Notes: generated by a model not told the origin, from the letters alone. Counted from the stretch's first letter, positions 1-41,900 are shown. The stretch: 41,900 bases of DNA from a virus (IMGVR_UViG_3300028960_000080:1-41900), one strand, 5' to 3'. A program made the numbers and translations.

Positions 1-1284
1 TTACTTCTTCGCCTCTGCAACCACTTTGCTACCCACGCCGCGGTTATTGTATTCCCACATGCGGTTGTAGTTAGTGTCATTCAGATTGCGTTGTATTTCG
101 TCGTTATCATCAACGCTGCCGGTGTTACCCGCAAACGGACGATTAGAGATCACCGCATCAGCCCAGGGTTTGGCTGTGTTAAAACCTTCGTTGATGGCGC
201 TATCACGGATCACCACCTGACCGTTGGTATTGGCATCAACATCCAGCGAGCGACCCAGTTGCGCCACGCCATCACCGGAAGCATTGAAACGGCTGTTTAC
301 GGCGAGGAAACCGTAATAGATGTTAGACAGCGTAGCCGGTGCAAACACATACGCTTCTTGCTGAGTACGTGAGTTCACCACGCGGAATTCGGTGTTATCG
401 AACACCACTGCGCCGCGACCAGAAACGATATCCACATCCCCTTCAATGTAACTGTTGGTCACCAGAGTACGCGGCTGACGGTTGGTTTCCAGACGGTTTT
501 GCACACCACTGTTGGTGACAAAGAAGGTATTCTGACGACCGAGAATGTTGACGTTATTGATCTGCACTTTGTCACCATCAGTACGCAGTGCCACCGCCGG
601 ATGGTTACCCGCATCTACGCTATCGCCCAGCGTGTTTTCGATGGTCAGATTTTGCAGTTGCAGGCCATTGTTTTGTGACCAGAAGACCGCAGAGCAGAGA
701 ACACCGATACTGTCGCTGCGTTTGCTCTGGCAGCTATCGTACATATACCACGCTGGTTTACCTGGCATATATTTGCCGCGCGGGTTGACGTCGTGACGCC
801 AGTCGGCAGGGCTCATGCCCCCATCAAGGGAAAGCCCAATCTTCACATCAATCGGTTTTTCACCTGTACCGTACAGAGTAATTCCACCCGGAGCGGCAGG
901 GACATACACCGTTCCCTGATACTCACCAGGCATCACGGCAATATACTGGCGCTTGTTGGTGCGCTTGATAATTGCCGCATCTACCGCCGCCTGAATCGTG
1001 GTATGCGTTACACCTTGAGTACCCGCCGGGCCGACAACAAAGTCAGGTTGCGCAGGCAGGGTAATCGGGGAAGGATTCCACGCTGCCGCACCTGGTGTCA
1101 GGGATGCAAAATAGTGTTGAGCATCGAAATTCTGCGCTTCTTTTGCCGACAGAATCGGGCGAGAAGAGGTACCAGGCGCGGTTTGATCAGAAGGACGTTG
1201 ATCGGGCGGTGTTGAGCTACAGGCGGTCAGCGTCACGCCAAAAGCCAATGCCAGCGCCAGACGGGAAACTGAAAATGTGTTCAC
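1..1284 (-). CDS. ybhC: Host pectinesterase-family outer-membrane lipoprotein YbhC (complete, 427 aa)
   Basis: Full-length ORF with lipoprotein signal (LTACSS); recognised as the gene flanking attB-lambda in E. coli; stop codon at 1..3 on the minus strand. Confidence 0.85.
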   Translation of the reverse strand: MNTFSVSRLALALAFGVTLTACSSTPPDQRPSDQTAPGTSSRPILSAKEAQNFDAQHYFASLTPGAAAWNPSPITLPAQPDFVVGPAGTQGVTHTTIQAAVDAAIIKRTNKRQYIAVMPGEYQGTVYVPAAPGGITLYGTGEKPIDVKIGLSLDGGMSPADWRHDVNPRGKYMPGKPAWYMYDSCQSKRSDSIGVLCSAVFWSQNNGLQLQNLTIENTLGDSVDAGNHPAVALRTDGDKVQINNVNILGRQNTFFVTNSGVQNRLETNRQPRTLVTNSYIEGDVDIVSGRGAVVFDNTEFRVVNSRTQQEAYVFAPATLSNIYYGFLAVNSRFNASGDGVAQLGRSLDVDANTNGQVVIRDSAINEGFNTAKPWADAVISNRPFAGNTGSVDDNDEIQRNLNDTNYNRMWEYNNRGVGSKVVAEAKK

Positions 1285-13164: not shown

Positions 13165-13181
13165 TTTGGTGGAGAAAGTTG

Positions 13182-13535
13182 ATGTGTGATATGTATGAAG
13201 TATTAGACCGTTGGGGAGCGTGGGCTGCGGCAGAGAACAGTGGTGTGGATTGGCAACCGGTAGCCGCTGGCTTCAAGGGGCTTTTACCTCATGGCAGAAA
13301 GTCCCGGATTCAGTGCGATGATGATGAAGGCATCATGATTGATGGCTGTGTCGCCCGCCTGCGGAAGTATAAACCAGAAGAATATGAGCTGATCATTGCT
13401 CATTTTGTGATTGGTATCTCATTACGCACCATTGCTAAGAAAAGAAAATGCTCTGATGGAGCAATTAGAAAAGAGCTTCAGGGAGCTATAGGGTTTATAT
13501 CAGGTATTCTATTATTGTTAGGCGAAGCCCTCTAG
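13182..13535 (+). CDS. Q: Late antiterminator Q (phage 82 / QuuD type)
   Basis: VLDRWGAWAA...AAGFKGL...RIQCDDD...GCVARLRK closely resembles DLP12 QuuD as I recall it; ATG at 13182 with GGAGA Shine-Dalgarno. Confidence 0.8.
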   Translation: MCDMYEVLDRWGAWAAAENSGVDWQPVAAGFKGLLPHGRKSRIQCDDDEGIMIDGCVARLRKYKPEEYELIIAHFVIGISLRTIAKKRKCSDGAIRKELQGAIGFISGILLLLGEAL

Positions 13536-13545: not shown

Positions 13546-14586
13546 TTAAAGTGATGCGATGATAGCCCTTCCAAGAGCTTCAGCCATCTTGGGAGGGACT
13601 GCATTCCCTATCTGTTTGGCTTTCGAGACTAAAGAGCCTGTGAAGGAATAGTCTAATGGGAAAGTCTGTAATAACGCAGCCTCTCTAACAGAAATAGCCC
13701 TATCTTGCTCTGGATGTCCGAAACGTCCATTCGAATAGCTTATACATCTAGTTGTTAATCCACTTGCTGGTTTGTCCCAAGAAAGCCGTCCATAAACATC
13801 AGTATGCCCTTTATATTTTTTATGGCATTTTAGTATAAGTTCTTCAGGCCAAGATTCTCTACCTTTTCCCTCAGGAGTCGCTTTAATACGTTTAATATTT
13901 AGATCAGATAGTTTGGCTGCTGTATGATCCATAACATCTTTATGAGTTTCACCGGCAGCAATAGGAGGTAATCCGCCGATCCAGTCTCTGACAGTTGCAT
14001 ACGGAGTTTTTAACCCATCATGAGTTTGTGATGGAAGCTTAATATTCGTGTGTTTTGACGCCAGTAAAACAAAACGTTCACGTGTTTGAGGAACCCCGAA
14101 CCACAACGCAGGAATCACACCAAAATCAACGTTGTAGTGATGATGTGCTAAAACCTCAAGAAATTTCTGGAAATTTCCATTGTTAATATCGACATTTTGG
14201 ATTCCTGGTACATTCTCTACCAGTACAAAGTCTGGCGTATAATAAGAGACAAACCGTGCAAACTCAGTAAGCAGATCTTTTCTCGGATCATCCTCGTTCC
14301 GTATTTTATTTTGTTTCGAGAATGGTTGACATGGAGCACAACCACAAAATAGGGTTAGAGCTTTGCTTTGTGTTGACGCACAAACCAGATGCTTAATTTC
14401 CTCAACGTGTGTATCTTTGATATCACCATTGATAAAATGTGCAAATGGATTATTCATTTTAAAGGTGTTAGCGGAATCTAGATCAATATCTAAACCGAAA
14501 ATAATTTCCATTCCCACCGCTTTTAGGCCTACACTGGTTCCGCCGCAGCCGGAAAAGAAATCGTAAACGTGTATCTTTTTAGCCAT
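13546..14586 (-). CDS. DNA cytosine-C5 methyltransferase (Dcm-like)
   Basis: Canonical C5-MTase motifs in order: I (DFFSGCGG), IV (GCAPCQPFS, catalytic Cys), VI (LVENV), VIII (QTRERFVLL); AT-rich by eye. Confidence 0.92.
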   Translation of the reverse strand: MAKKIHVYDFFSGCGGTSVGLKAVGMEIIFGLDIDLDSANTFKMNNPFAHFINGDIKDTHVEEIKHLVCASTQSKALTLFCGCAPCQPFSKQNKIRNEDDPRKDLLTEFARFVSYYTPDFVLVENVPGIQNVDINNGNFQKFLEVLAHHHYNVDFGVIPALWFGVPQTRERFVLLASKHTNIKLPSQTHDGLKTPYATVRDWIGGLPPIAAGETHKDVMDHTAAKLSDLNIKRIKATPEGKGRESWPEELILKCHKKYKGHTDVYGRLSWDKPASGLTTRCISYSNGRFGHPEQDRAISVREAALLQTFPLDYSFTGSLVSKAKQIGNAVPPKMAEALGRAIIASL

Positions 14587-14589
14587 TAT

Positions 14590-16380
14590 CTACCTCACTC
14601 TTGGTCTGATAGTATCATTATCTAAAAAGATTTGCAGCAACTCTCGAGTTTTTGTTAACACTTCATGATTATTTGGTATTTTATTAAGAATTCTGATTTG
14701 TGTTTCAAAGATATCGTCACTGGTAACGTTCTCCAACCCTGTGTCTAACTTACAAAGTTCTTTGGTGATTTCTTTAGCATCTTGAATGTTTTTGGGGATT
14801 TGATCTTTATATTCTTTATAATCACCATGAACATTCTCAATAAGAAATGCTTCAGGAGTATAAACAGGAAGAAAAGCAATTTTATCGTGGATGAAATCGA
14901 TAAAATTTCTTTGCATTGTGTATTTTTGATTGTTATTTGATGAGCCATTAGAACCATCACAACTAAATTTTATATCCTGATTGGTTATTTCTTTTATGAT
15001 GTTTTGAAGGTTTGTGTTTTGATTTTCTGGTATGGAATCAGAAGTTGGATAATCATCAGTTCTCGATTGGTCACCATCTAATAAGAAAATAACGTTTTTA
15101 ACATTGGCAACACATAAAGGCACAGCCAAAGTTTGAAGAATACTTCCCGCTCCTCCAGGAACATGTTTTACTTCGAAGGAGTTTAATAATGCTTCACCAC
15201 CCGCTTTAAGCGCCTTTTCTACAAACCTCTTCGCTAACCGATCTTCTACAATAACGGTTCTTTTATCAATGCGTTCACCAAGAATAAAGAAAGATTCTTC
15301 TGGACTGACATTTTGAAGAACATCAACCTTTCCTATTTTATCATTCAGACAGAATAATTTTATGGCATTTTTAGGCAAGTCTTTTACTATTGTTGATGAA
15401 TGTGTGGATATGACAATTTGATGTTTCTTTTTAAGTGCTTGTTCTGATAAAAATTCCATCAATTGACATTGAGCAGAAGGGTGAAGTGATACTTCAGGTT
15501 CATCTAGCAGAATTAAAGATGCATCAGGGCTATCCATTAGTTTATGCACTAATATAGATACAGCAAATTCCCCACTGCCTGCGAAAGCTTCAGAATATTT
15601 TAAGTTTTCTGATTGAAGAATAATTGTGGGAGCTTTGTCATTAGTGAATAAGCTATGTTCAATAAGGCGGATGCTTGTGTATTTGCGACCTAAAATCTTG
15701 CTGATTGCCTCTACCTTACTTTTTTCTAATAAAGTGTTAACAAATAGCTTGTCTTTTTTTCCTTTATGAGGTTGATATTTTTTAAGATCGTTATCTATAA
15801 TGTCTTTTAGCATCTGACTGCGTTTTCTAAGATAATCTTTCTTAGGGTATGTATGAAAATCAGAGTGATAAAAGAACTTATCAAATGCACTGATAGTTGC
15901 TCTGAAATCTAAATATATTACATTTTTGTCAATAGCTTTCCACCTGGTCCTTAGTTGATTGGTTGAGATTTTTGTACTAGGCATTGGAGCCATGTTGTCG
16001 GATTTTAATGGTCTGGATGGTTCCCAGTAATCAGGATCATTTTCTTTAGAGATTCGAGTTTTAATTACTTCAACAATTGAATCAGTAGCTTTGTCATAAT
16101 ATCCATAAATAAATCTAGAACGACCACCATCTTTAATCTCATCTACATCTGTAGAAAACCATAAGCTACCCAGAGAATAGTTGTTTGGAGAACCGAATAG
16201 GGCTCTTAAAACAGAACTTTTATTGGTTCCGTTTTGACCAACTAATGCTGTAATTGGATACTCAAAATCAATCTTGCTACCCTCTGCAAGGTTTTTAAAA
16301 AAAGGAAAACGAATATGTCTAATAAATGGCTCAATTTTAGACGATGCCATAATTTTCTTTAGTTTTAATTCTGTGCTCAT
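14590..16380 (-). CDS. ABC-type ATPase fused to a TOPRIM-like nuclease domain (OLD-family-like / fused PARIS-like), 596 aa
   Basis: Walker A (GQNGTNKSS), Walker B (LILLDEPEVSLHP), H-loop (ISTHS) in the N-terminal half; C-terminal TVIVED and FLLDGDQ fit the TOPRIM Glu and DxD motifs; 3-nt gap to the methyltransferase gene; start could instead be the ATG at 16350. Confidence 0.8.
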   Translation of the reverse strand: MSTELKLKKIMASSKIEPFIRHIRFPFFKNLAEGSKIDFEYPITALVGQNGTNKSSVLRALFGSPNNYSLGSLWFSTDVDEIKDGGRSRFIYGYYDKATDSIVEVIKTRISKENDPDYWEPSRPLKSDNMAPMPSTKISTNQLRTRWKAIDKNVIYLDFRATISAFDKFFYHSDFHTYPKKDYLRKRSQMLKDIIDNDLKKYQPHKGKKDKLFVNTLLEKSKVEAISKILGRKYTSIRLIEHSLFTNDKAPTIILQSENLKYSEAFAGSGEFAVSILVHKLMDSPDASLILLDEPEVSLHPSAQCQLMEFLSEQALKKKHQIVISTHSSTIVKDLPKNAIKLFCLNDKIGKVDVLQNVSPEESFFILGERIDKRTVIVEDRLAKRFVEKALKAGGEALLNSFEVKHVPGGAGSILQTLAVPLCVANVKNVIFLLDGDQSRTDDYPTSDSIPENQNTNLQNIIKEITNQDIKFSCDGSNGSSNNNQKYTMQRNFIDFIHDKIAFLPVYTPEAFLIENVHGDYKEYKDQIPKNIQDAKEITKELCKLDTGLENVTSDDIFETQIRILNKIPNNHEVLTKTRELLQIFLDNDTIRPRVR

Positions 16381-28794: not shown

Positions 28795-28943
28795 CGGCTG
28801 AATACCTCACTGATCGCTTCTTTGACTGCGCCAGCTACTGGCGCATTAATCCCTTCGAATTGCTGAATATGCCGATCAGTGAAATTCCCTTGCTGGTCAG
28901 TCAGGCAAACAGGATAGAGCAGGAGAAACGCACACATGGCTGA
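28761..28943 (+). CDS. -1 frame extension of the tail assembly chaperone (fusion product 28525..28782 + 28782..28943)
   Basis: Open -1 frame from the slippery site to a stop overlapping the tape-measure start; canonical G/GT-type arrangement. Confidence 0.6.
   Translation: MACGWFFPPGLTAEYLTDRFFDCASYWRINPFELLNMPISEIPLLVSQANRIEQEKRTHG
28776..28782 (+). other. Programmed -1 ribosomal frameshift slippery site (T TTT TTC)
   Basis: X XXY YYZ heptamer in the chaperone frame; the -1 frame continues as PPGLTAEYLTDRFFD... to 28943. Confidence 0.6.
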
Positions 28944-30777
28944 ATTTGAGCTTAAGGCGTTGATCACCGGTGTCGACAGGCTTTCTCCCGCGCTGTCGAA
29001 AATGCAAAAGAAAATCCGGGGATTTAAACGCCAGGCGGAAGAAGCGTCACAGGGTGGGCTGGCGCTTGGTGGCGGACTGGCTGCGGGTCTGACGCTTTCC
29101 CTGAAATCTTATGCCGATCAGGAAAACGCCGCCACCGGGCTGAAAGTCGCCATGATGGATGCGAACGGCGAGGTTGGAAAGCGCTTTCAGGACATCAATA
29201 AACTGGCTATTGGTCTGGGTAACCAGCTACCCGGTACAACGGCTGATTTCCAGAACATGATGCAGATGCTGGTGCGTCAGGGGATCCCGGCAGAAAACAT
29301 TCTGGGTGGTGTGGGTAAAGCGACAGCTTATCTTGCGGTACAACTGAAAAAAACACCGGAAGCGGCTGCTGAGTTTGCTGCAAAGATGCAGGATGCTACC
29401 GGAACGGCGTCAGAAGACATGATGGGGCTGTTCGACACTATCCAGAAGGCGTTTTATCTGGGCGTTGACGATACCAACATGTTGTCCTTCTTCACTAAAA
29501 CCAGTTCTGTTCTGAAGATGGTGAACAAGGACGGTCTTCAGGCTGCACAGAGCCTTGCCCCCATCAGCGTCATGATGGATCAGATGGGGATGAACGGGGA
29601 GTCGGCAGGTAATGCCCTGCGAAAAGTTATCCAGTCCGGATTAAGCGTTAAGAAAATCAGGGACGTCAATAAAGTCATGGCCCGCCAGAAACTCGGGGTA
29701 CAGCTCGATTTTACTGACGGCAAAGGAAGTTTTGGCGGTCTTGATAACATGTTCAGGCAACTGGCAAAGCTGCGAAAACTGACCGACGTTAAGCGAACAG
29801 GTGTACTTAAGGCAATATTTGGTGATGATGCCGAAACCCTTCAGGTGGTCAATGCACTAATCGATAAAGGAAAGGATGGCTACGATCAGATCCAGCAGAA
29901 GATGAATAAACAGGCCAGCCTGAATAAACGTGTTCAGGCCCAGCTTGGTACGCTGTCCAACCTGTGGGAGGCAATGACGGGGACCGCAACTAACGGCCTT
30001 GCGGCTATTGGCGGCGCATTTTCTGGTGACGCCAAAAATATCACGCAATGGCTGGGGGAGTTAGGGGAAAAATTCACGAAGTTTGCGGATGAAAATCCCC
30101 GGGTTATTCGCGGCGTCGTCGGGCTTGCTGCCGGTCTTGCGATTCTGAAACTGGGATTGATGGGCGTTGGCGGGGCCATCAGTATTGTCAGCAGGATCAT
30201 GTCGATGACGCCGATTGGAATGATTGCGACGGCGATAGCCCTGGCTGCGGGATTAATTATCACTAACTGGGATGTTGTCGGACCTTATTTCAAGAAGCTC
30301 TGGGAAACCATTGGTCCTTATTTTGAGGCTGGCTGGGAACTTCTGAAGAAGGTTTTTGCCTGGTCGCCGCTGGGGATGGTAATCAATAACTGGGGACCGG
30401 TTGTTAAGTGGTTTCAGGATATGTGGGACAAGCTGAAGCCAATTATTGAGTGGTTTACCGACAGTTCCGGTGACACGGTCGATGCCATTAACTCTGCGCA
30501 GTGGGGCGCGGGTGCTTATGATGCTTATGGGACGGGATTCCCGGCGCGGGGATACACACCTTATCCGGCCATGGATCCGGCTCAGGCAAACAACGCCTCC
30601 GATGCCACAGGCCCGAATCCCTTCATGATTAACAAAGCTTCTGCGCCAAAAGTTGACGGTGAGATCAAGATCTCTTTTGTGAATTCGCCTCCGGGTATGC
30701 GGGTTATGGAAACGCGATCCAGCGGTATCGACGTGAATCACGACGTTGGCTACACCCGATTTGGTATGGGGGGCTGA
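28936..30777 (+). CDS. Tail tape measure protein
   Basis: 613-aa ORF, helical with Gly/Ala-rich hydrophobic segments; follows the frameshifted chaperone. Confidence 0.9.
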   Translation: MAEFELKALITGVDRLSPALSKMQKKIRGFKRQAEEASQGGLALGGGLAAGLTLSLKSYADQENAATGLKVAMMDANGEVGKRFQDINKLAIGLGNQLPGTTADFQNMMQMLVRQGIPAENILGGVGKATAYLAVQLKKTPEAAAEFAAKMQDATGTASEDMMGLFDTIQKAFYLGVDDTNMLSFFTKTSSVLKMVNKDGLQAAQSLAPISVMMDQMGMNGESAGNALRKVIQSGLSVKKIRDVNKVMARQKLGVQLDFTDGKGSFGGLDNMFRQLAKLRKLTDVKRTGVLKAIFGDDAETLQVVNALIDKGKDGYDQIQQKMNKQASLNKRVQAQLGTLSNLWEAMTGTATNGLAAIGGAFSGDAKNITQWLGELGEKFTKFADENPRVIRGVVGLAAGLAILKLGLMGVGGAISIVSRIMSMTPIGMIATAIALAAGLIITNWDVVGPYFKKLWETIGPYFEAGWELLKKVFAWSPLGMVINNWGPVVKWFQDMWDKLKPIIEWFTDSSGDTVDAINSAQWGAGAYDAYGTGFPARGYTPYPAMDPAQANNASDATGPNPFMINKASAPKVDGEIKISFVNSPPGMRVMETRSSGIDVNHDVGYTRFGMGG

Positions 30778-30858
30778 TACCCCGCTTAAACACGGGTTTT
30801 GTCGTTTAGCAGGTTCTTGGTAGGATTAGTCCGATACTTTAATGATGGGAATAGGGAT

Positions 30859-31536
30859 ATGAAAGTCTTAACAATTTATTCAGTTGTCGGCATGGCTCTT
30901 TTACTCGGGGGATGTACCTCTCCGAAGTACAATTATTTACCAAAAACAGAAAATTATAGTGAACCTCCTGTAGGAAGCATTAATACAGCTTATGTCGGTG
31001 ATTCAATGATTAAGCAGGGGGTGTCACAGAGGTTTGAAGGTCTGAAGGTTAATGCTCCTGCGAGAATTTCCTGGGCGTATACGATCACTCCGGGGATGCT
31101 GAAAAAGGTTGGTGAGGATAACAAGGCTGATTATTACTTTCTCACAAACGGTGCTGATTCAGCCAATGTGGAAAAGGCAGCCCTTGCCGATATGTGGCAG
31201 GGCATCATGGTAGAAAAGAAAAAGAATGCCTTATGTGTAATAACAGTTTTCGGTGTTACCAACTGTGAAACTAACATGCCTATCGAAAAGGTTACTCTGA
31301 ATATCAGTGGTGATTCATCTTTCCAGCAAGCTCTGCTTTACAACGGAAGGGTCGGAAACAAAATCAACATTGGATATCGTGAATTTTCATCGAATACAGC
31401 ACGCCCGGCCTTCAACAACGATGTTGAGTATGATCTCGCGGAGTCTAAAACAATTGGCTATAAAGGGGCTAAATTCGAAGTACTTGATGCGAGTAACCAA
31501 AGCATAAGGTATCGGGTAATAAGTAACTTTAGATAA
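30859..31536 (+). CDS. Moron lipoprotein (about 225 aa) inside the tail module
   Basis: ATG at 30859 gives MKVLTIYSVVGMALLLGGCTSPK with lipobox LLGGC; AT-rich by eye; followed by its own intrinsic terminator. Confidence 0.65.
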   Translation: MKVLTIYSVVGMALLLGGCTSPKYNYLPKTENYSEPPVGSINTAYVGDSMIKQGVSQRFEGLKVNAPARISWAYTITPGMLKKVGEDNKADYYFLTNGADSANVEKAALADMWQGIMVEKKKNALCVITVFGVTNCETNMPIEKVTLNISGDSSFQQALLYNGRVGNKINIGYREFSSNTARPAFNNDVEYDLAESKTIGYKGAKFEVLDASNQSIRYRVISNFR

Positions 31537-31550
31537 GCGATAATTTAATG

Positions 31551-31576
31551 AAACCCGCTTCGGCGGGTTTTTTTAT
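31551..31576 (+). terminator. Rho-independent terminator after the lipoprotein moron
   Basis: AAACCCGC-TTCG-GCGGGTTT hairpin followed by TTTTTA. Confidence 0.8.
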
Positions 31577-31589
31577 ATCCGGAGTTTAT

Positions 31590-32918
31590 ATGACGTGGAA
31601 AGACAGACTTCAGGACGCGTCATTTCGCGGCGTGCCGTTTAAGGTTGAAGAAGAAAGTGCGGGAACCGGTCGTCGTGTGGAAACGCACGAATACCCGAAC
31701 CGCGACAAACCCTATACCGAAGACCTGGGGAAAATCACTTTCCGCCCGTCCATCACGGCTTATGTGGTGGGAGATGACTGCTTTGACCAGCGCGATCGCC
31801 TGATTGACGCGCTGAATAAACCCGGTCCCGGCACGCTTGTCCATCCGACTTACGGTGAGCTGAAAGTCTGTGTTGACGGAGAGGTTCGGGTCAGCACATC
31901 GAAGAGTGAAGGGCGTATTGTCCGCTTTGACCTGAAGTTTGTCGAAGCAGGAGAACTCTCTTACCCCACATCAGGTGCGGCGACGGCGCAGACGCTGATG
32001 TCATCCTGTTCTGCACTGGATGACTGCATCAGTGACAGCTTCAGCGGTTTCAGTATCGATGGTGTGGCGGATTTCGTGCAGAACGACGTTATCGGTAATG
32101 CCAGCATAATGCTGGGGTATGTTTCTGATGCGATGAAAGTGGTGGATTCTGCCGTATCGGATGCCGCCAGGCTGTTGCAGGGGGATATCTCGGTACTTCT
32201 GCCGCCGCCATCGTCAGGCAAAAATTTCGTTGAGCAGGTGCAGAAAATGTGGCGTACCGGGAAACGCCTTTATGGTAACGCCAGCGACCTGGTCACCATG
32301 ATCAAAACGCTTTCCGGTGTCAGCCTCGGCAGCGATCTGCAACCGCGCGGCGTCTGGAAAACGGACAGTAAAACTACCGCTACGGCGACGCAGCAGCGTA
32401 ACGTGGTTGCCAGCACCCTTCGTACGACCGCAATCAGCGAAGCGGCGTATGCCGTCACACGATTGCCTGCGCCAACAACTTCCGCGGTGATGCAGAATGC
32501 CGCAATGGGGCAGGCAACAACACCTGCGCAGAGCACTGGCTGGCCTTCCGTCACGCATCCGGCACTGAACAATGCACCGGCGGTGAAAAGCACGGTTGAC
32601 CTGCCGACGTGGGAAGAACTGACTGACATTCGCGACACACTGAATACGACAATTGATAAGGAGTTGTCCCGTACAACCAGTGATGCGCTGTTTCTGGCGC
32701 TGCGCCGGGTGAAAGCAGATCTGAATGCGGATATCAACATGCGCCTTGAACAGTCTGCGCGGATCATTCAGCGCACACCGGATGAGGTTTTACCCGCGCT
32801 GGTGCTGGCGGCGACCTGGTTTGATAACGCGGCGCGTGACGCGGACATTATCCGGCGTAATGCCATTACGCATCCCGGCTTTGTGCCGGTGATCCCTCTG
32901 AAGGTGCCAGTGCAATGA
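31590..32918 (+). CDS. DNA circulation protein (Mu gpN-like)
   Basis: ATG at 31590 with GGAG Shine-Dalgarno; N-terminal region typical of Mu-like DNA circulation proteins; after the tape-measure gene. Confidence 0.75.
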   Translation: MTWKDRLQDASFRGVPFKVEEESAGTGRRVETHEYPNRDKPYTEDLGKITFRPSITAYVVGDDCFDQRDRLIDALNKPGPGTLVHPTYGELKVCVDGEVRVSTSKSEGRIVRFDLKFVEAGELSYPTSGAATAQTLMSSCSALDDCISDSFSGFSIDGVADFVQNDVIGNASIMLGYVSDAMKVVDSAVSDAARLLQGDISVLLPPPSSGKNFVEQVQKMWRTGKRLYGNASDLVTMIKTLSGVSLGSDLQPRGVWKTDSKTTATATQQRNVVASTLRTTAISEAAYAVTRLPAPTTSAVMQNAAMGQATTPAQSTGWPSVTHPALNNAPAVKSTVDLPTWEELTDIRDTLNTTIDKELSRTTSDALFLALRRVKADLNADINMRLEQSARIIQRTPDEVLPALVLAATWFDNAARDADIIRRNAITHPGFVPVIPLKVPVQ

Positions 32919-38226: not shown

Positions 38227-39702
38227 CTAAAGTGAATCTATTCCATTTTTCCAAATAAGAACTTTTTTGTCTTGTATTTTATGAGTGCTATCAGGCTGCC
38301 CAAACTGTTTTATGGCCTTTTCCTCTTGCTCTACATCATCAGCAATTAAAAAATTAGCTCCTTTTTGGTACCATTCTTTTTTTGATAACCAATTATATGG
38401 TGTGAATCTATCACCATACGACTCAAATGGAGCTACGTTGATATCACTAAATCCAGCAACAGATGATGCAAACCAAAATGATGCATAACCTCTTTGTAGT
38501 TTATTTTTTATTAAGAAATCTCTTAATTCTATTGTAATATCATTTTTATTAACAATGTTTTTTGTTGTTGCCATCGTTGGCAACGATAACGCAATAACGA
38601 TTAATGATATTAGTAAATTTGTCTTCACTGGTAAGGAGAAAGAATTTCTAGCAATCACAATTGACATGAAAATAAACGTTGGGACTATGTATCTAATTGA
38701 GAAAAGATTTGTTGGCCTGTCACTTGAAATATAGGCAATCAACATGACTAATGATGATACAATAAGAACCTGGTCAATAAAATCAATTTCTTTAAATTTA
38801 AGAATATTTTTATAAGATAAAAATAAGAATACGAAAATGAAAAACACCTTTATCATGGTGAATAATGAGTTAAAGCTACCTATCTCCATTCCAAACGCGT
38901 ACCCACCAAAAAATTTGAATACGCCCATGATAACAAGAGATATGTTGCTTGTTATTTGTTGAAACTCTACTATGTGAGGTTTGGTTATGCCTGGCAGGTT
39001 AAATCCACCAAGCTTAATGAATATAAATGATATGAGCTCAGCAATAAATATAGATGATATAGTGAAAACCAACAATAACAAATCATTAGTATTCAACGAA
39101 TCTCTTTTCATTAGAGAAGCATACATTCTATATATGCAAACAAAAACTATAGGTATTATAAAGGCATATTTAGATATATCATCACTAAAAACAAGCAACG
39201 ATAACATAAATACATATGGAAAAAGTAATTTTAAATCATTTTTCTTTCTGTATCTATCTATTATTAGTATGATCGCCAGCATGTAAATGTACGCACCAAT
39301 ATGTATACATGCTATAAGCATTATACTTGATGAGAAAACCGTTGGAATTCCAAATACAGAAAGAACAGGCCATAACGATGCCCTACTTTTAGTATGAGAG
39401 ATATATAGCGATAGTGTTACTAATATAGACATGAAAACTCCAGGCACAATATAGTACAGATTTTCATTAAATCCTATTATTTTTATCGCTATAGCATATG
39501 GTATTATTTCTGTGAAATAGAATGATACAGTTGATAAATCCCACCCACTGAGAAAAATATTTCCTTCAGTAATATCCCTTGCCTCTCTGAATGAAGACAT
39601 GACATCTGAGTTTGGAATTATGTTTTTAGCAATCATTGAGTAAATTATTGATAATACAATAAATGTTGCCAGCCAATATAAAAGCTCAAGCTTCTTGCTC
39701 AT
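38227..39702 (-). CDS. Serotype-specific O-antigen glucosyltransferase (GtrC-type polytopic membrane protein)
   Basis: 491-aa multi-pass membrane protein immediately downstream of gtrB; very AT-rich. Confidence 0.8.
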
Positions 39703-40616
39703 TTTTTACCCTTAAGTACATACTTTGGACGCTGCTTAACTTCAATGTAAATTCTACCAATATACTCACCGAGCACTCCAATCCCAATTAACTGGATGCC
39801 GCCAAGAAATAATATTGATACAAGAATTGAAGGGTATCCAGGTACATTATTACCAAAAATTAATTTATCAATTATCATCCATGAACCGTATGTAAATGAT
39901 ATACATGCAATAAATAACCCAATATAGGTCCACATGCGAAGCGGGAATGTTGAGAAGCTAGTGATCCCTTCCAGCGCCAAGTTCCATAGCTTCCATCCAT
40001 TGAACTTTGTGCTTCCTGCAACGCGTTCTGCTCGCGCATATTCTACGACATCGGTTCGACCACCAACCCAGCTCAGCACACCCTTCATAAACAGGTTTCG
40101 TTCTGGCATGAGCTTAATGTTTTCTACTACTTCGCGAGACATGAGCCGGAAGTCGCCAACATTCTCTTCTATCTGAGGGTTGCTGATTTTGTTATGAAGT
40201 TTATAGAACCACTCAGCAGATTTACGCTTCAGCCTGCTGTCAGTGGAGCGGTCAGAGCGTTTAGCCAGAACCATATCTGCACCGGCCTGCCATTTCTCTA
40301 TCAAGTGAGGAATAACTTCGATAGGGTCTTGCAGATCAACGTCAATCGGGATAATTGCCTCCCCGGTAGCATGGTCCAGACCTGCGAACAGGGCGGGTTC
40401 TTTGCCGAAGTTACGTGTGAACGACAGCGAAACCACAAGCGGGTCGGCAACAGCAAGCTCGTTGATAATTGATTCTGTAGCGTCTTTGCTGCCATCGTTT
40501 ATGAAGACTATCTCGACTTCATGCTGCTGAAGCCCTTCAAATTCGCGCACGGTTTTATAAAAAATAGGTATCGTGGCCTCTTCGTTAAAGACCGGAACGA
40601 CTAAAGAAATTTTCAT
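39699..40616 (-). CDS. gtrB: Bactoprenol glucosyltransferase GtrB
   Basis: GT2-family glycosyltransferase signatures ([22 protein letters not shown]) and two C-terminal transmembrane helices. Confidence 0.92.
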
Positions 40617-40975
40617 TTCGCATCCCTAAAGACAATGTATTTTGAATAAATGAACCCGCATATCAGGCTGATGGCGGAGAAGGTGACAAGAGTTATCATC
40701 GGGGGAAGTGCGCATCTATCAGCAGCCCATCCAACAGTAGCACTGAGTGTTCCCATGAACCCGACATATAACATGTAGCGCATCGTTGTAGTTGATGATT
40801 TGAATGTGAATTTTGCATTCGCGAAGAAGCTAAAACTCACAGCCACAACGAAACCTGCGAAGTTTGCCAGAGCCTGATTGGTATGCGCGGCATAGATACA
40901 TACACTAAAAACCACCCAGTGTATAAGTGTGTTCAGCACACCAATCGAGGTGTACCTTGCAAATATATTTAACAT
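40613..40975 (-). CDS. gtrA: GtrA flippase-like small membrane protein
   Basis: 120-aa four-helix membrane protein upstream of gtrB; the three genes overlap by 4 nt each. Confidence 0.85.
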
Positions 40976-41423: not shown

Positions 41424-41900
41424 TTAACTAAACATCGCAGTAATCGAGGCGCTTGCCAGAGAATGGAAATGGACGTTAAACCCGACCATCGCGCCGCTGG
41501 CACCTTCATCGACATCAATACGTTCTACATCCAGCGCGTGAACGGTAAAAATGTAGCGATGGGTTTCGCCTTTCGGCGGCGCTGCACCATCGTACCCGGT
41601 TTTACCAAAGTCGGTACGCGTCTGCAAAACGCCGTCTGGCATTGCTACCAGACCAGAGCCAAACCCTTGCGGTAATACGCGGGTATCAGCGGGTAAATTA
41701 ACAACTACCCAGTGCCACCAGCCGGAGCCGGTTGGCGCATCCGGGTCGTAGCAGGTGACAACAAAACTTTTCGTTCCCGCAGGAACATCATCCCACGCCA
41801 GATGCGGTGAAACATTATCGCCATCGTAACCCATGCCGTTAAAGACATGACGATGTGGCAACTTATCGCCATCGCGCAGATCATTACTGATGAGTTTCAT
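41424..41900 (-). CDS. ybhB: Host PEBP-family protein YbhB (complete, 158 aa)
   Basis: Full ORF; recognised as the gene flanking attB-lambda on the bio side; start codon at the window edge. Confidence 0.85.
   Translation of the reverse strand: MKLISNDLRDGDKLPHRHVFNGMGYDGDNVSPHLAWDDVPAGTKSFVVTCYDPDAPTGSGWWHWVVVNLPADTRVLPQGFGSGLVAMPDGVLQTRTDFGKTGYDGAAPPKGETHRYIFTVHALDVERIDVDEGASGAMVGFNVHFHSLASASITAMFS

What the first reader, a model, noticed from the sequence alone, without database searches (positions are those of the whole stretch)
30799..31576. Lipoprotein moron with its own terminator inserted between tape measure and baseplate genes
A roughly 225-aa protein with a signal peptide and lipobox (MKVLTIYSVVGMALLLGGC) sits between the tape-measure and DNA-circulation genes, visibly AT-rich and followed by a clean intrinsic terminator (31551..31576). 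Mu-type tail modules normally run without interruption here. Phage lipoproteins of this kind are classic superinfection-exclusion or receptor-masking factors (lambdoid Cor and T5 Llp are precedents), so this is a candidate lysogenic-conversion gene.
Basis: partly seen in the sequence, partly recalled or inferred. Interest (0 to 1): 0.55.

Follow-up and report, generated by a model that had tools for sequence, protein, structure and literature searches.

The report
Portable prophage lipoprotein gene beside tape-measure gene
A prophage in E. coli carries an optional, self-contained gene for an outer-membrane-type lipoprotein of unknown function. It sits at a cargo hot spot in the tail genes and belongs to a very large, unstudied protein family that phages repeatedly place next to their tape-measure gene.

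Summary
A 225-aa ORF (ATG 30859 to stop 31536, not the TTG at 30799) has a signal peptide and lipobox. It has 41.6% GC against 52-59% in the flanks, and a hairpin plus T-run follows it (31550-31577). It lies between the tape-measure gene and the Mu gp43-like "DNA circulation" gene of an SfV/SfII-like prophage.

Moron status is well supported:
- SfI, SfII and SfV lack the gene.
- In a spread sample of 47 E. coli junctions, 30 were empty and 17 held one of at least 5 other AT-rich cargo genes.
- A promoter-like element (TTGTCG, 16 nt, TGGTAGGAT) travels with the gene into unrelated phages.
- dN/dS is 0.06-0.12.

The terminator is not the gene's own. The same hairpin, kept by compensatory stem changes, sits at empty sites.

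The protein matches no Pfam, PADLOC or PDB entry, and its confident all-beta model matches no solved fold. The family is large (3058 clusters at 50% identity), spans many phyla and has no conserved partner gene. In phages of Enterobacterales and Moraxellaceae it almost always adjoins a tape-measure gene.

Superinfection exclusion is plausible but untested. Receptor masking of the Cor/Llp type looks unlikely.

The parts
28936..30777 (+). Tail tape-measure protein gene (613 aa), the left flank of the cargo site. Its last ~75 nt already differ from SfII.
   Evidence: PF10145 E 5e-27 and phrog_28/17727. The junction comparison with SfII and SKA5 shows the 3' end differences.
30780..30802 (+). Weak hairpin plus TTTT (CCCG-cttaaaca-CGGG-TTTT). 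It looks like a decayed copy of the upstream terminator that precedes the cassette in other phages.
   Evidence: The K. aerogenes prophage L005 has an intact AAACCCGC-TTAACT-GCGGGTTT hairpin at the homologous position, and Acinetobacter phage L003 has an analogous one. The fold in the window is not better than shuffles.
30799..30826 (+). Promoter-like element: -35 TTGTCG (30799-30804), a 16-nt spacer, and an extended -10 TGGTAGGAT (30818-30826).
   Evidence: It scores 8/12 plus a TG extension, below the threshold of the consensus scan. The architecture TTGnnn-16-TGnTAGGAT-30..40-ATG recurs in 14 of 23 distinct upstream regions of the Enterobacterales clade, and 2 more have a 15-nt spacer. Homology between contexts begins at the -35. 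No expression data exist.
30847..30857 (+). Ribosome-binding region GGGAATAGGGA.
   Evidence: GGGATATG is invariant in 5 aligned relatives from 3 genera.
30859..31536 (+). Lipoprotein gene, 225 aa. The signal peptide is aa 1-18, the lipobox is LLGG-C19 (Cys codon 30913-30915), and the mature protein is ~207 aa and all-beta.
   Evidence: Full-length match to phrog_1353, E 1.5e-98. AF2 pLDDT 90.8. dN/dS 0.06-0.12.
31550..31577 (+). Intrinsic-terminator-like hairpin (9-bp stem, TTCG loop) plus T-run. It is shared with empty sites and with other same-strand cargos at this junction.
31581..32918 (+). RBS (GGAG 31581-31584) and the gene for the Mu gp43-like 'DNA circulation'/baseplate hub protein (ATG 31590), the right flank.
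   Evidence: PF07157 E 7e-34 and phrog_184. The start matches the SKA5 and PGAP annotations.
13179..13535 (+). Q-type late antiterminator gene (context). It explains how late transcription can pass the terminators inside the tail operon.
   Evidence: PF06530 E 9e-44. Read-through itself is an inference from what is known of lambda Q.

Best explanation
Window 30778-31577 holds a moron. This is a portable, single-gene transcription unit (promoter-like element, leader, lipoprotein gene) sitting at a cargo hot spot between the tape-measure gene and the baseplate-hub gene of an SfV/SfII-like, Q-regulated prophage. It lies just upstream of a terminator hairpin that belongs to the junction.

Shown by sequence. 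The product has a Sec/LspA-type signal peptide and an invariant lipobox cysteine. Residue +2 is Thr, and it is never Asp in the family. Two further cysteines are invariant.

Inferred. By the E. coli Lol sorting rule, the protein is lipid-anchored to the outer membrane, with an oxidised, all-beta domain of about 207 aa in the periplasm or on the surface. It works alone, because no partner gene is conserved.

Proposed mechanism (inference). In the lysogen the gene is transcribed from its own weak extended -10 promoter and stopped by the junction terminator. During lytic growth it is also read as part of the Q-antiterminated late operon. The protein binds something conserved in the envelope of diderm bacteria, or in what crosses that envelope. 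This protects the lysogen, most likely by blocking a post-adsorption step of superinfecting phages: tail-tip or tape-measure passage through the periplasm. Masking of one specific receptor is less likely.

My probabilities: moron and lipoprotein about 0.9; anti-phage exclusion as the benefit about 0.35; a tape-measure-directed mechanism about 0.2.
For: Optional gene. It is absent from SfI, SfII and SfV with otherwise 93-94% identical flanks. 868 E. coli genomes hold both flanks. In a spread sample of 47 junctions, 30 were empty, 1 held this gene and 16 held other cargos. The gene is present in 55 of 5426 genomes, always at this junction, as two alleles.

Foreign composition. The gene is 41.6% GC against 52-59% in the flanks. 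It is more AT-rich than its flanks in 60 of 71 loci across phyla, by a median of 7.2 points.

Own promoter-like element. Homology between different phage contexts starts at the -35. TTGnnn-16-TGnTAGGAT is present in 14 of 23 distinct upstream regions. Upstream terminator hairpins insulate the cassette in Klebsiella and Acinetobacter phages.

Selection. dN/dS is 0.06-0.12, and there are 38 invariant columns among 50 homologues.

Lipoprotein. Cys19 is invariant, and +2 is A/T/V/S/L and never D.

Stand-alone gene. No neighbour family is shared by more than 9 of 78 loci.

Defence-like neighbourhoods. A Fels-2 homologue lies between the replication gene gpA and the portal gene. That position is described as the P2 old/tin defence hot spot in bioRxiv 10.1101/2024.10.15.618418. 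A Geobacter copy lies next to an integrase in an island that also carries a reverse transcriptase gene.

Linkage to tape-measure genes. Of 57 viral contigs with enough flank, 40 have a large same-strand ORF within 700 nt. These ORFs fall into at least 7 clusters at 50% identity, and 9 of 9 tested are tape-measure proteins of 4 PHROG families.

Precedent. The HK97 gp15 moron lies next to the tape-measure gene and blocks genome injection (PMC3594210).

Other occupants of this hot spot are mostly exported or membrane proteins.
Against: There are no expression data and no phenotype. The promoter scores only 8/12 and was missed by the standard consensus scan.

Nothing matches PADLOC, Pfam, PDB sequences or solved or viral predicted folds. 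The function therefore rests on context alone.

In the one-genome-per-species genome sample, tape-measure adjacency was confirmed only in Enterobacterales and Moraxellaceae, and the distant loci I tested have ordinary chromosomal neighbours such as rpoD or topoisomerase genes. The phage copy keeps every invariant residue. The ancestral function, which need not concern phages, is therefore probably retained.

The position next to the tape-measure gene may only reflect a permissive insertion site in late operons.
Confidence: 0.4

Rival explanations
1. The gene is a general envelope-protection or homeostasis factor unrelated to phages. The phage has borrowed a widespread bacterial lipoprotein that binds or inhibits something conserved in the periplasm or outer membrane. 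Candidates are a peptidoglycan hydrolase or lysozyme, a bacteriocin or contact-dependent toxin, complement, or an envelope stress. The lysogen would gain fitness in the way it does from Bor, TraT or the lysozyme inhibitors.
For: The family is very large and found in many phyla (3058 clusters at 50% identity; taxa). It mostly lies in chromosomal contexts with no phage genes. The phage copy keeps all invariant residues and shows 45-52% identity to distant chromosomal copies. This differs from HK97 gp15, which diverged from YebO (PMC3594210). No effector-like partner gene is conserved.
Against: There is no sequence or fold similarity to Bor, TraT, lysozyme inhibitors or any solved protein. The gene is persistently AT-richer than its flanks. 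It turns up in phage hot spots and integrase-adjacent islands, which is more typical of conflict genes than of housekeeping genes.
Confidence: 0.3
2. The gene serves the phage during lytic growth. Transcribed with the late tail operon, the lipoprotein would modify the envelope of the dying cell. For example, it could prevent progeny from being inactivated on debris or outer-membrane vesicles, or it could tune lysis. It would then not act mainly in the lysogen.
For: The gene has the same orientation as the Q-dependent late operon and lies inside it. In phages it lies between tail genes and in their orientation. T5 Llp is thought to have such a dual role (own knowledge).
Against: A conserved promoter-like element, and in some phages an upstream terminator, insulate the gene from the operon. 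Most closely related phages do without it. A distant Fels-2 homologue sits outside the late genes.
Confidence: 0.12
3. The protein is a structural or assembly component of the tail, such as a tail-tip or baseplate accessory.
For: Its position lies between the tape-measure and baseplate genes, and it is recurrently adjacent to tape-measure genes.
Against: SfI, SfII, SfV and about 95% of E. coli prophages with the same tail genes lack it. It has a cleavable lipoprotein signal peptide, so it is exported before virions assemble in the cytoplasm. It occurs widely in non-phage chromosomal contexts. Alternative, unrelated cargos occupy the same site, some on the opposite strand.
Confidence: 0.03

Closest known systems
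HK97 gp15 moron (Juhala et al. 2000; Cumby et al. 2012; reviewed in PMC3594210)
   Same: Both are single-gene inserts in the tail operon directly next to the tape-measure gene. Both have deviating base composition and their own promoter and terminator logic. Both encode a cell-envelope protein that has bacterial homologues outside prophages. gp15 blocks genome injection in a way that depends on the tail of the incoming phage.
   Different: gp15 is a small inner-membrane protein of the YebO family that diverged from its cellular relatives. The present protein is a 207-aa all-beta lipoprotein, unrelated in sequence, that keeps all family-invariant residues. It lies downstream of the tape-measure gene in this myovirus-type tail. 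No phenotype is known.
Cor (phi80/N15/HK022) and Llp (T5) exclusion lipoproteins
   Same: Both are phage-encoded outer-membrane lipoproteins that act alone.
   Different: Cor and Llp are small proteins (roughly 60-80 residues, own knowledge) that block one receptor, FhuA, and are encoded near receptor-binding genes. The present family is three times larger. It shows no sequence or fold match. It is conserved across phyla where no single receptor is shared, and it is linked to tape-measure genes rather than receptor-binding genes.
Ltp of Streptococcus phage TP-J34 (PMC3952083)
   Same: Both are prophage lipoproteins exposed outside the cytoplasmic membrane. Ltp excludes superinfecting phages at DNA injection, with the tape-measure protein reported as its target (own knowledge of Bebeacua et al. 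2013). This is the closest functional model for the novel reading.
   Different: Ltp comes from a Gram-positive host. It is encoded in the lysogeny module, it is helical rather than all-beta, and there is no sequence similarity.
TraT (F-like plasmids) and Bor (lambda)
   Same: Both are outer-membrane lipoproteins carried by mobile elements that act alone. TraT is of similar size (about 220 aa mature, own knowledge) and gives surface exclusion and serum resistance.
   Different: No Pfam family, TraT and Bor models included so far as Pfam holds them, reaches E 0.01. No fold match was found.
phrog_1353 (PHROGs v4, function unknown)
   Same: The window protein matches it over its full length (E 1.5e-98, residues 1-225 on profile positions 1-227 of 230). 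It is a member.
   Different: The family carries no annotation, so membership says nothing about function.

Membership tests
Moron (Juhala/Hendrix definition, as summarised in PMC3594210) | Present in one phage and absent from closely related phages ('more DNA') | tested here: met
   SfI, SfII and SfV lack it and have 93-94% identical flanks. 30 of 47 sampled E. coli junctions are empty.
Moron (Juhala/Hendrix definition, as summarised in PMC3594210) | Base composition differs from the surrounding genes | tested here: met
   41.6% GC against 52-59% in the flanks, and GC3 40.7% against 58-64%.
Moron (Juhala/Hendrix definition, as summarised in PMC3594210) | Own promoter | tested here: inconclusive
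   TTGTCG-16-TGGTAGGAT scores 8/12 plus a TG extension and was missed by the standard scan. The element is positionally conserved, and cassette homology starts at it in unrelated phages. No transcript data exist.
Moron (Juhala/Hendrix definition, as summarised in PMC3594210) | Own terminator | tested here: inconclusive
   The hairpin plus T-run at 31550-31577 is real. An equivalent hairpin with a compensatory stem change is present at the empty SfII site and with other cargos. A similar one follows the gene in a Citrobacter siphovirus.
Moron (Juhala/Hendrix definition, as summarised in PMC3594210) | Expressed from the repressed prophage | not testable with these tools
   This needs RNA-seq or 5'-RACE on a lysogen.
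Bacterial lipoprotein (Lgt/LspA/Lnt pathway) | N-terminal signal peptide ending in a lipobox with an invariant Cys | tested here: met
   The N-terminus is MKV, a hydrophobic core, then LLGG-C19. Cys19 is invariant in 50 homologues. A lipobox was found in at least 66 of 78 genome copies.
Bacterial lipoprotein (Lgt/LspA/Lnt pathway) | Actual lipidation and outer-membrane localisation | not testable with these tools
   Only inferred. Residue +2 is Thr here and A/T/V/S/L, never Asp, in the family. By the E. coli Lol rule this predicts outer-membrane sorting.
Cor/Llp-type receptor-masking exclusion lipoproteins | Sequence or fold similarity to Cor or Llp | tested here: not met
Cor/Llp-type receptor-masking exclusion lipoproteins | Blocks a defined outer-membrane receptor (FhuA) and gives an exclusion phenotype | not testable with these tools
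   This needs plating and adsorption assays. The cross-phylum conservation argues against a lineage-specific receptor, but that is an inference.
Known anti-phage defence families (PADLOC-DB 2.0) | Match to a model of a known or candidate defence protein | tested here: not met
   0 families at E up to 1.
phrog_1353 | Full-length profile match | tested here: met
   E 1.5e-98, 330 bits, residues 1-225 on profile positions 1-227 of 230.

The most novel reading that the evidence does not exclude
The family is a previously unrecognised, very widespread single-protein envelope defence of diderm bacteria. In this reading, an outer-membrane-anchored lipoprotein intercepts the tape-measure or tail-tip complex of incoming tailed phages in the periplasm, as a Gram-negative counterpart of Ltp. 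Phages would keep it next to their own tape-measure gene because the two must be compatible, or are co-selected.
Probability: 0.18. Interest if true: 0.7.

Novelty: new member of a known kind. Interest (0 to 1): 0.45.

Why it matters
If it is expressed in lysogens, this is a cheap, testable candidate for a new prophage-conferred envelope trait, and it is present in about 1% of complete E. coli genomes. More broadly, it points to an unstudied lipoprotein family: about 3000 clusters at 50% identity, no Pfam model, and no fold match in the PDB or BFVD. Temperate phages of two bacterial orders repeatedly park this family beside their tape-measure gene. The tape-measure/baseplate junction of SfV-like prophages is itself a compact cargo hot spot, with at least 6 alternative AT-rich genes that mostly encode envelope proteins. 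It could be mined in the way the P2 hot spots have been.

Tried and rejected
- Pfam on the window protein and on 10 distant or longer relatives, including Fels-2 STM2726: nothing significant.
- NCBIfam: only a spurious pilin hit (17 bits against a cut-off of 138).
- PADLOC: nothing.
- PDB sequence profile search: nothing.
- Foldseek against BFVD and the PDB: no hit below E 0.05.
- The afdb50 library was unavailable.
- Literature searches for STM2726, the WP_ accessions, phrog_1353 and EcHS_A0921: nothing useful. The transcriptomics paper PMC7067206 does not cover Fels-2. Rousset et al. 2022 does not mention a lipoprotein.
- Search for a conserved partner gene by all-against-all clustering of neighbours in 78 genome loci: none. 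The commonest neighbour, an ABC transporter, occurs in 9 loci at about 3 kb.
- Structural tail protein, spanin and pseudogene readings were rejected. The gene shows presence/absence polymorphism, it is too large for a spanin and lies outside a lysis cassette, and its dN/dS is low.
- The TTG start at 30799 was rejected in favour of ATG 30859.

Full report

Yes. The + strand carries an ORF at 30799..31536. The mechanical ORF starts at a TTG. The biologically sensible start is ATG 30859, preceded by GGGAATAGGGA, which gives a 225-aa protein beginning MKVLTIYSVVGMALLLGGC. NCBI's pipeline calls exactly this 678-nt CDS in E. coli genomes, and homologues begin at the same place.

The N-terminus is a textbook lipoprotein signal: a short basic n-region, a hydrophobic core, and the lipobox LLGG-C. 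Cys19 is invariant in an alignment of 50 homologues.

The gene has 41.6% GC (GC3 40.7%), while the sheath, tape-measure, DNA-circulation and gpP-like genes have 52-59% (GC3 58-64%).

A 9-bp GC-rich hairpin with a TTCG loop and a T-run lies at 31550-31577. It folds at -16.4 kcal/mol, and 1 of 200 shuffles folds as well.

The downstream gene starts at ATG 31590 behind GGAG, not at the ATG 31548 that lies inside the hairpin.

**2. What phage is this?**

The window is an SfV/SfI/SfII-like temperate phage with a Mu-like contractile tail. It has a CI-like repressor and a lambda-Q-type antiterminator (13179-13535). At its right end it carries a gtrA-gtrB-gtr(type) O-antigen glucosylation cassette.

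Q antitermination is inferred from what is known of lambda. It explains why intrinsic terminators inside the late operon are tolerated.

**3. The gene is optional and the site is a hot spot.**

SfI, SfII and SfV match both flanks at 93-94% identity but lack the gene.

I searched a 901-nt query made only of the two flanks against 5426 complete E. coli genomes. 868 genomes hold both flanks together. In an evenly spread sample of 47 such junctions, the spans were:
- 30 empty (1023 nt);
- 1 with this lipoprotein (1781 nt);
- 9 of 1643-1644 nt, annotated as a hypothetical protein, with a span that fits the phage SKA5 type;
- 5 with an "OB-fold protein" (1549 or 1406 nt);
- 2 with a "PH domain-containing protein" (1456 nt).

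One lower-identity row carried yet another gene.

All these alternative cargos are AT-rich (31-41% GC). Most are envelope proteins: one has a signal peptide, one an N-terminal membrane anchor, and one two membrane segments. Three of the cargo genes retrieved, of two types, lie on the opposite strand to the tail operon.

The lipoprotein DNA itself is in 55 of 5426 genomes as two alleles, 30 records at 99% identity or more and 25 at about 94%. It was at this junction in the three records whose annotated context I retrieved, one of them a 100-kb plasmid carrying the same tail module. The exact protein is on at least 1000 contigs of the large collection and is named only "hypothetical protein".

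**4. The transcription signals.**

The standard consensus scan found no promoter in 30778-30858. A relaxed scan finds TTGTCG (30799), 16 nt, then TGGTAGGAT (30818-30826), which scores 8/12 with an extended -10 TG.

Comparison makes this element credible. The 60 nt before the ATG are conserved in the second E. coli allele, in Pseudocitrobacter and in Citrobacter pasteurii, although the gene upstream is different in each.

Across 23 distinct upstream regions of the Enterobacterales clade, 14 have TTGnnn-16-TGnTAGGAT-30..40-ATG, and two more have a 15-nt spacer. The sequence 5' of the -35 is unrelated between contexts. Homology of the mobile unit therefore begins at the promoter-like element.

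In a Klebsiella aerogenes siphovirus prophage the element is TTGACC-16-TGTTAGGAT (9/12 plus TG), and a strong terminator hairpin precedes it. Acinetobacter phage Ab1656-2 has the same layout with different sequences. The weak hairpin at 30780-30802 in the window looks like a decayed copy of that upstream terminator.

The downstream terminator is a different matter. The empty SfII junction has TCCCAC-TCCG-GTGGGA-T6 at the same distance from the GGAG of the next gene, and its depositors annotated it as a terminator. The PH-domain cargo is followed by GCCCAC-TTCG-GTGGGC-T6. The SKA5 cargo shares the 3' arm GGCGGG-T6-ATATCCGGAG with the window.

The stems differ by a compensatory change (CCCGC/GCGGG versus CCCAC/GTGGG). 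The hairpin is therefore a conserved feature of the junction, not something the lipoprotein gene brought with it. A similar hairpin does follow the gene in the Citrobacter siphovirus. Terminators may thus be the joints at which these cassettes recombine.

**5. The protein and its family.**

There is no Pfam family, no NCBIfam family above cut-off, no PADLOC model and no PDB sequence match. The only named home is phrog_1353, of unknown function, matched over the full length.

The family is large:
- 1067 hits in the word-indexed search;
- 3058 clusters at 50% identity at E up to 0.001, and 1898 at 1e-10, in the exhaustive search. Nearly all are single-domain proteins of about 225 aa.

Members occur in gamma-, beta- and alphaproteobacteria, Geobacter and Desulfuromusa, Nitrospirota, Planctomycetota, Gemmatimonadota, Omnitrophota, Verrucomicrobiota and Bacteroidota.

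Conservation is unusually high for phage cargo. Mean column identity is 60%, and 38 columns are invariant. These include the lipid-attachment Cys, two further Cys (126 and 136, which I infer form a disulfide) and the signature GNKINIGYREFSxNxARPAFNNDVEYDL.

dN/dS is 0.11 between the two E. coli alleles and 0.06 against the Pseudocitrobacter copy.

**6. Genomic habits of the family.**

All-against-all clustering of neighbours in 78 one-per-species genome loci finds no conserved partner. The commonest neighbour family occurs in 9 loci at about 3 kb and is an ABC transporter. Integrases are adjacent in 5 loci. The protein therefore acts alone.

The gene is AT-richer than its 12-kb surroundings by more than 3 points in 60 of 71 loci, and never GC-richer (median -7.2 points). 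Amino-acid composition may explain part of this. The pattern still fits a gene that is repeatedly transferred.

In distant phyla the neighbours are ordinary chromosomal genes, for example rpoD or a type II topoisomerase.

In Enterobacterales and Moraxellaceae the picture differs. There the gene is phage cargo and sits beside the tape-measure gene. Of 57 IMG/VR loci with enough flank:
- 40 have a large same-strand ORF within 700 nt;
- 46 have one within 2.5 kb.

These ORFs fall into at least 7 clusters at 50% identity. Nine of nine tested are tape-measure proteins, best assigned to phrog_1107, phrog_24 and phrog_1506, with phrog_2854 a strong second match for one. In the genome set, the large neighbours tested in Rouxiella, Erwinia and two Acinetobacter species are also tape-measure proteins.

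In siphovirus-type tails the gene lies just upstream of the tape-measure gene, sometimes within a cluster of other morons (Arc, antirepressor, Rha). In the SfV-like myovirus tail it lies just downstream.

An NJ tree puts the phage-borne copies in three host-specific clades: Enterobacterales, Acinetobacter, and Psychrobacter/Moraxella. The tree has no support values, so the number of independent captures is uncertain.

A 27%-identical lipoprotein homologue in Fels-2 and in Klebsiella P2-like phages lies instead between gpA/DinI and the portal gene. That position is described as the P2 old/tin defence hot spot in bioRxiv 10.1101/2024.10.15.618418. A Geobacter copy lies next to an integrase in an island that also carries a reverse transcriptase gene.

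**7. Most likely function.**

What is shown: a portable, selected, single-gene unit encoding an exported lipoprotein, sitting at a hot spot whose other occupants are mostly envelope proteins.

What is inferred: it is expressed in the lysogen and changes the envelope to the lysogen's benefit.

The closest precedent is the first moron ever described, HK97 gene 15. It also lies next to the tape-measure gene. It encodes an envelope protein with non-phage bacterial homologues, and it blocks genome injection in a way that depends on the tail of the incoming phage (PMC3594210).

I therefore rank [quoted passage not shown] first, at about 0.35. A non-phage protective role inherited from the chromosomal family follows at about 0.3. 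A lytic-cycle role comes third at about 0.12.

Receptor masking in the manner of Cor or Llp is unlikely. A family with 45-50% identity from E. coli to Geobacter and Planctomycetota must recognise something broadly conserved.

The adjacency to tape-measure genes has two readings that I could not separate. It may be a permissive insertion site in late operons, as the other cargos at this junction suggest. Or it may be a functional link to the tape-measure protein, as with Ltp, gp15 and Tab, all of which act through that protein (PMC10884400; for Ltp, my own knowledge of Bebeacua et al. 2013).

**8. Verdict.**

The finding is real and its core reading, a lipoprotein moron and candidate lysogenic-conversion gene, stands. 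Three corrections apply:
- the terminator belongs to the junction;
- the junction is a hot spot rather than a normally uninterrupted run;
- the Cor/Llp analogy is weak.

As a kind of element it is known. The protein family is uncharacterised, large, structurally unmatched and easy to test.

Noticed in passing
window 30778-31589, and the equivalent junction in L001 and L097-L100: The tape-measure/DNA-circulation junction of SfV-like E. coli prophages is a cargo hot spot. At least 6 alternative AT-rich single genes occupy it: this lipoprotein, the SKA5-type secreted protein, two forms of a membrane-anchored OB-fold protein, a PH-domain protein, and a protein with two membrane segments. Three of the cargo genes retrieved, of two types, lie on the opposite strand. 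About a third of sampled junctions are occupied.
   Followed up: partly
window 31550-31577; L013:585-623; L097 ~1190-1215: The terminator-like hairpin just before the DNA-circulation gene is kept at empty and occupied sites with a compensatory stem change (CCCGC/GCGGG versus CCCAC/GTGGG). Why a late tail operon keeps an intrinsic terminator here is unexplained. Cassette exchange seems to happen at or in it.
   Followed up: partly
window 13546-16380 (- strand): Directly after the Q antiterminator gene, on the opposite strand, lies a C-5 cytosine DNA methylase (PF00145) followed by a 596-aa AAA_15/AAA_21 ATPase. This looks like a second cargo module, possibly defence or restriction-modification related.
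   Followed up: no
window 38227-40975 (- strand): This is a gtrA (PF04138), gtrB (GT2) and 491-aa type-specific gtr cassette for O-antigen glucosylation, as in the Shigella serotype-converting phages. It is a second envelope-modifying module in the same prophage. The ORF at 41424-41900 is a YbhB/PEBP-like gene, which may be host DNA beyond the prophage end.
   Followed up: no
L014:6772-7065: In Pseudocitrobacter the lipoprotein gene is followed by a second small cargo ORF (97 aa, MKKWFFVAA...). It has nearly the same translation-initiation region (GGGGATAGGGATATG) as the lipoprotein gene.
   Followed up: no
L094 (NZ_CP104632.1, 100,861-bp plasmid pHNAH212872-2): A complete SfV-like tail module including the lipoprotein cassette lies on a circular 100-kb E. 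coli plasmid. This may be a phage-plasmid or an integrated prophage.
   Followed up: no
L002:4947-5678 (Fels-2 STM2726) and the Klebsiella P2-like phages: A 27%-identical lipoprotein homologue occupies the position between gpA/DinI and the portal gene in P2-like phages, next to a 565-aa hypothetical protein (STM2723.1). That position is described in bioRxiv 10.1101/2024.10.15.618418 as the P2 old/tin defence hot spot.
   Followed up: partly
L013:591 (SfII_17) and window 31548: Some database annotations start the DNA-circulation gene at an ATG inside the terminator hairpin. The conserved GGAG-N5-ATG (window 31590) is the more likely start.
   Followed up: yes
P0175 (446 aa): One library protein joins a phage capsid domain (PF05065, residues 115-310) to the C-terminal two thirds of the lipoprotein domain. 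This is probably a gene-calling or assembly artefact rather than a real fusion.
   Followed up: no
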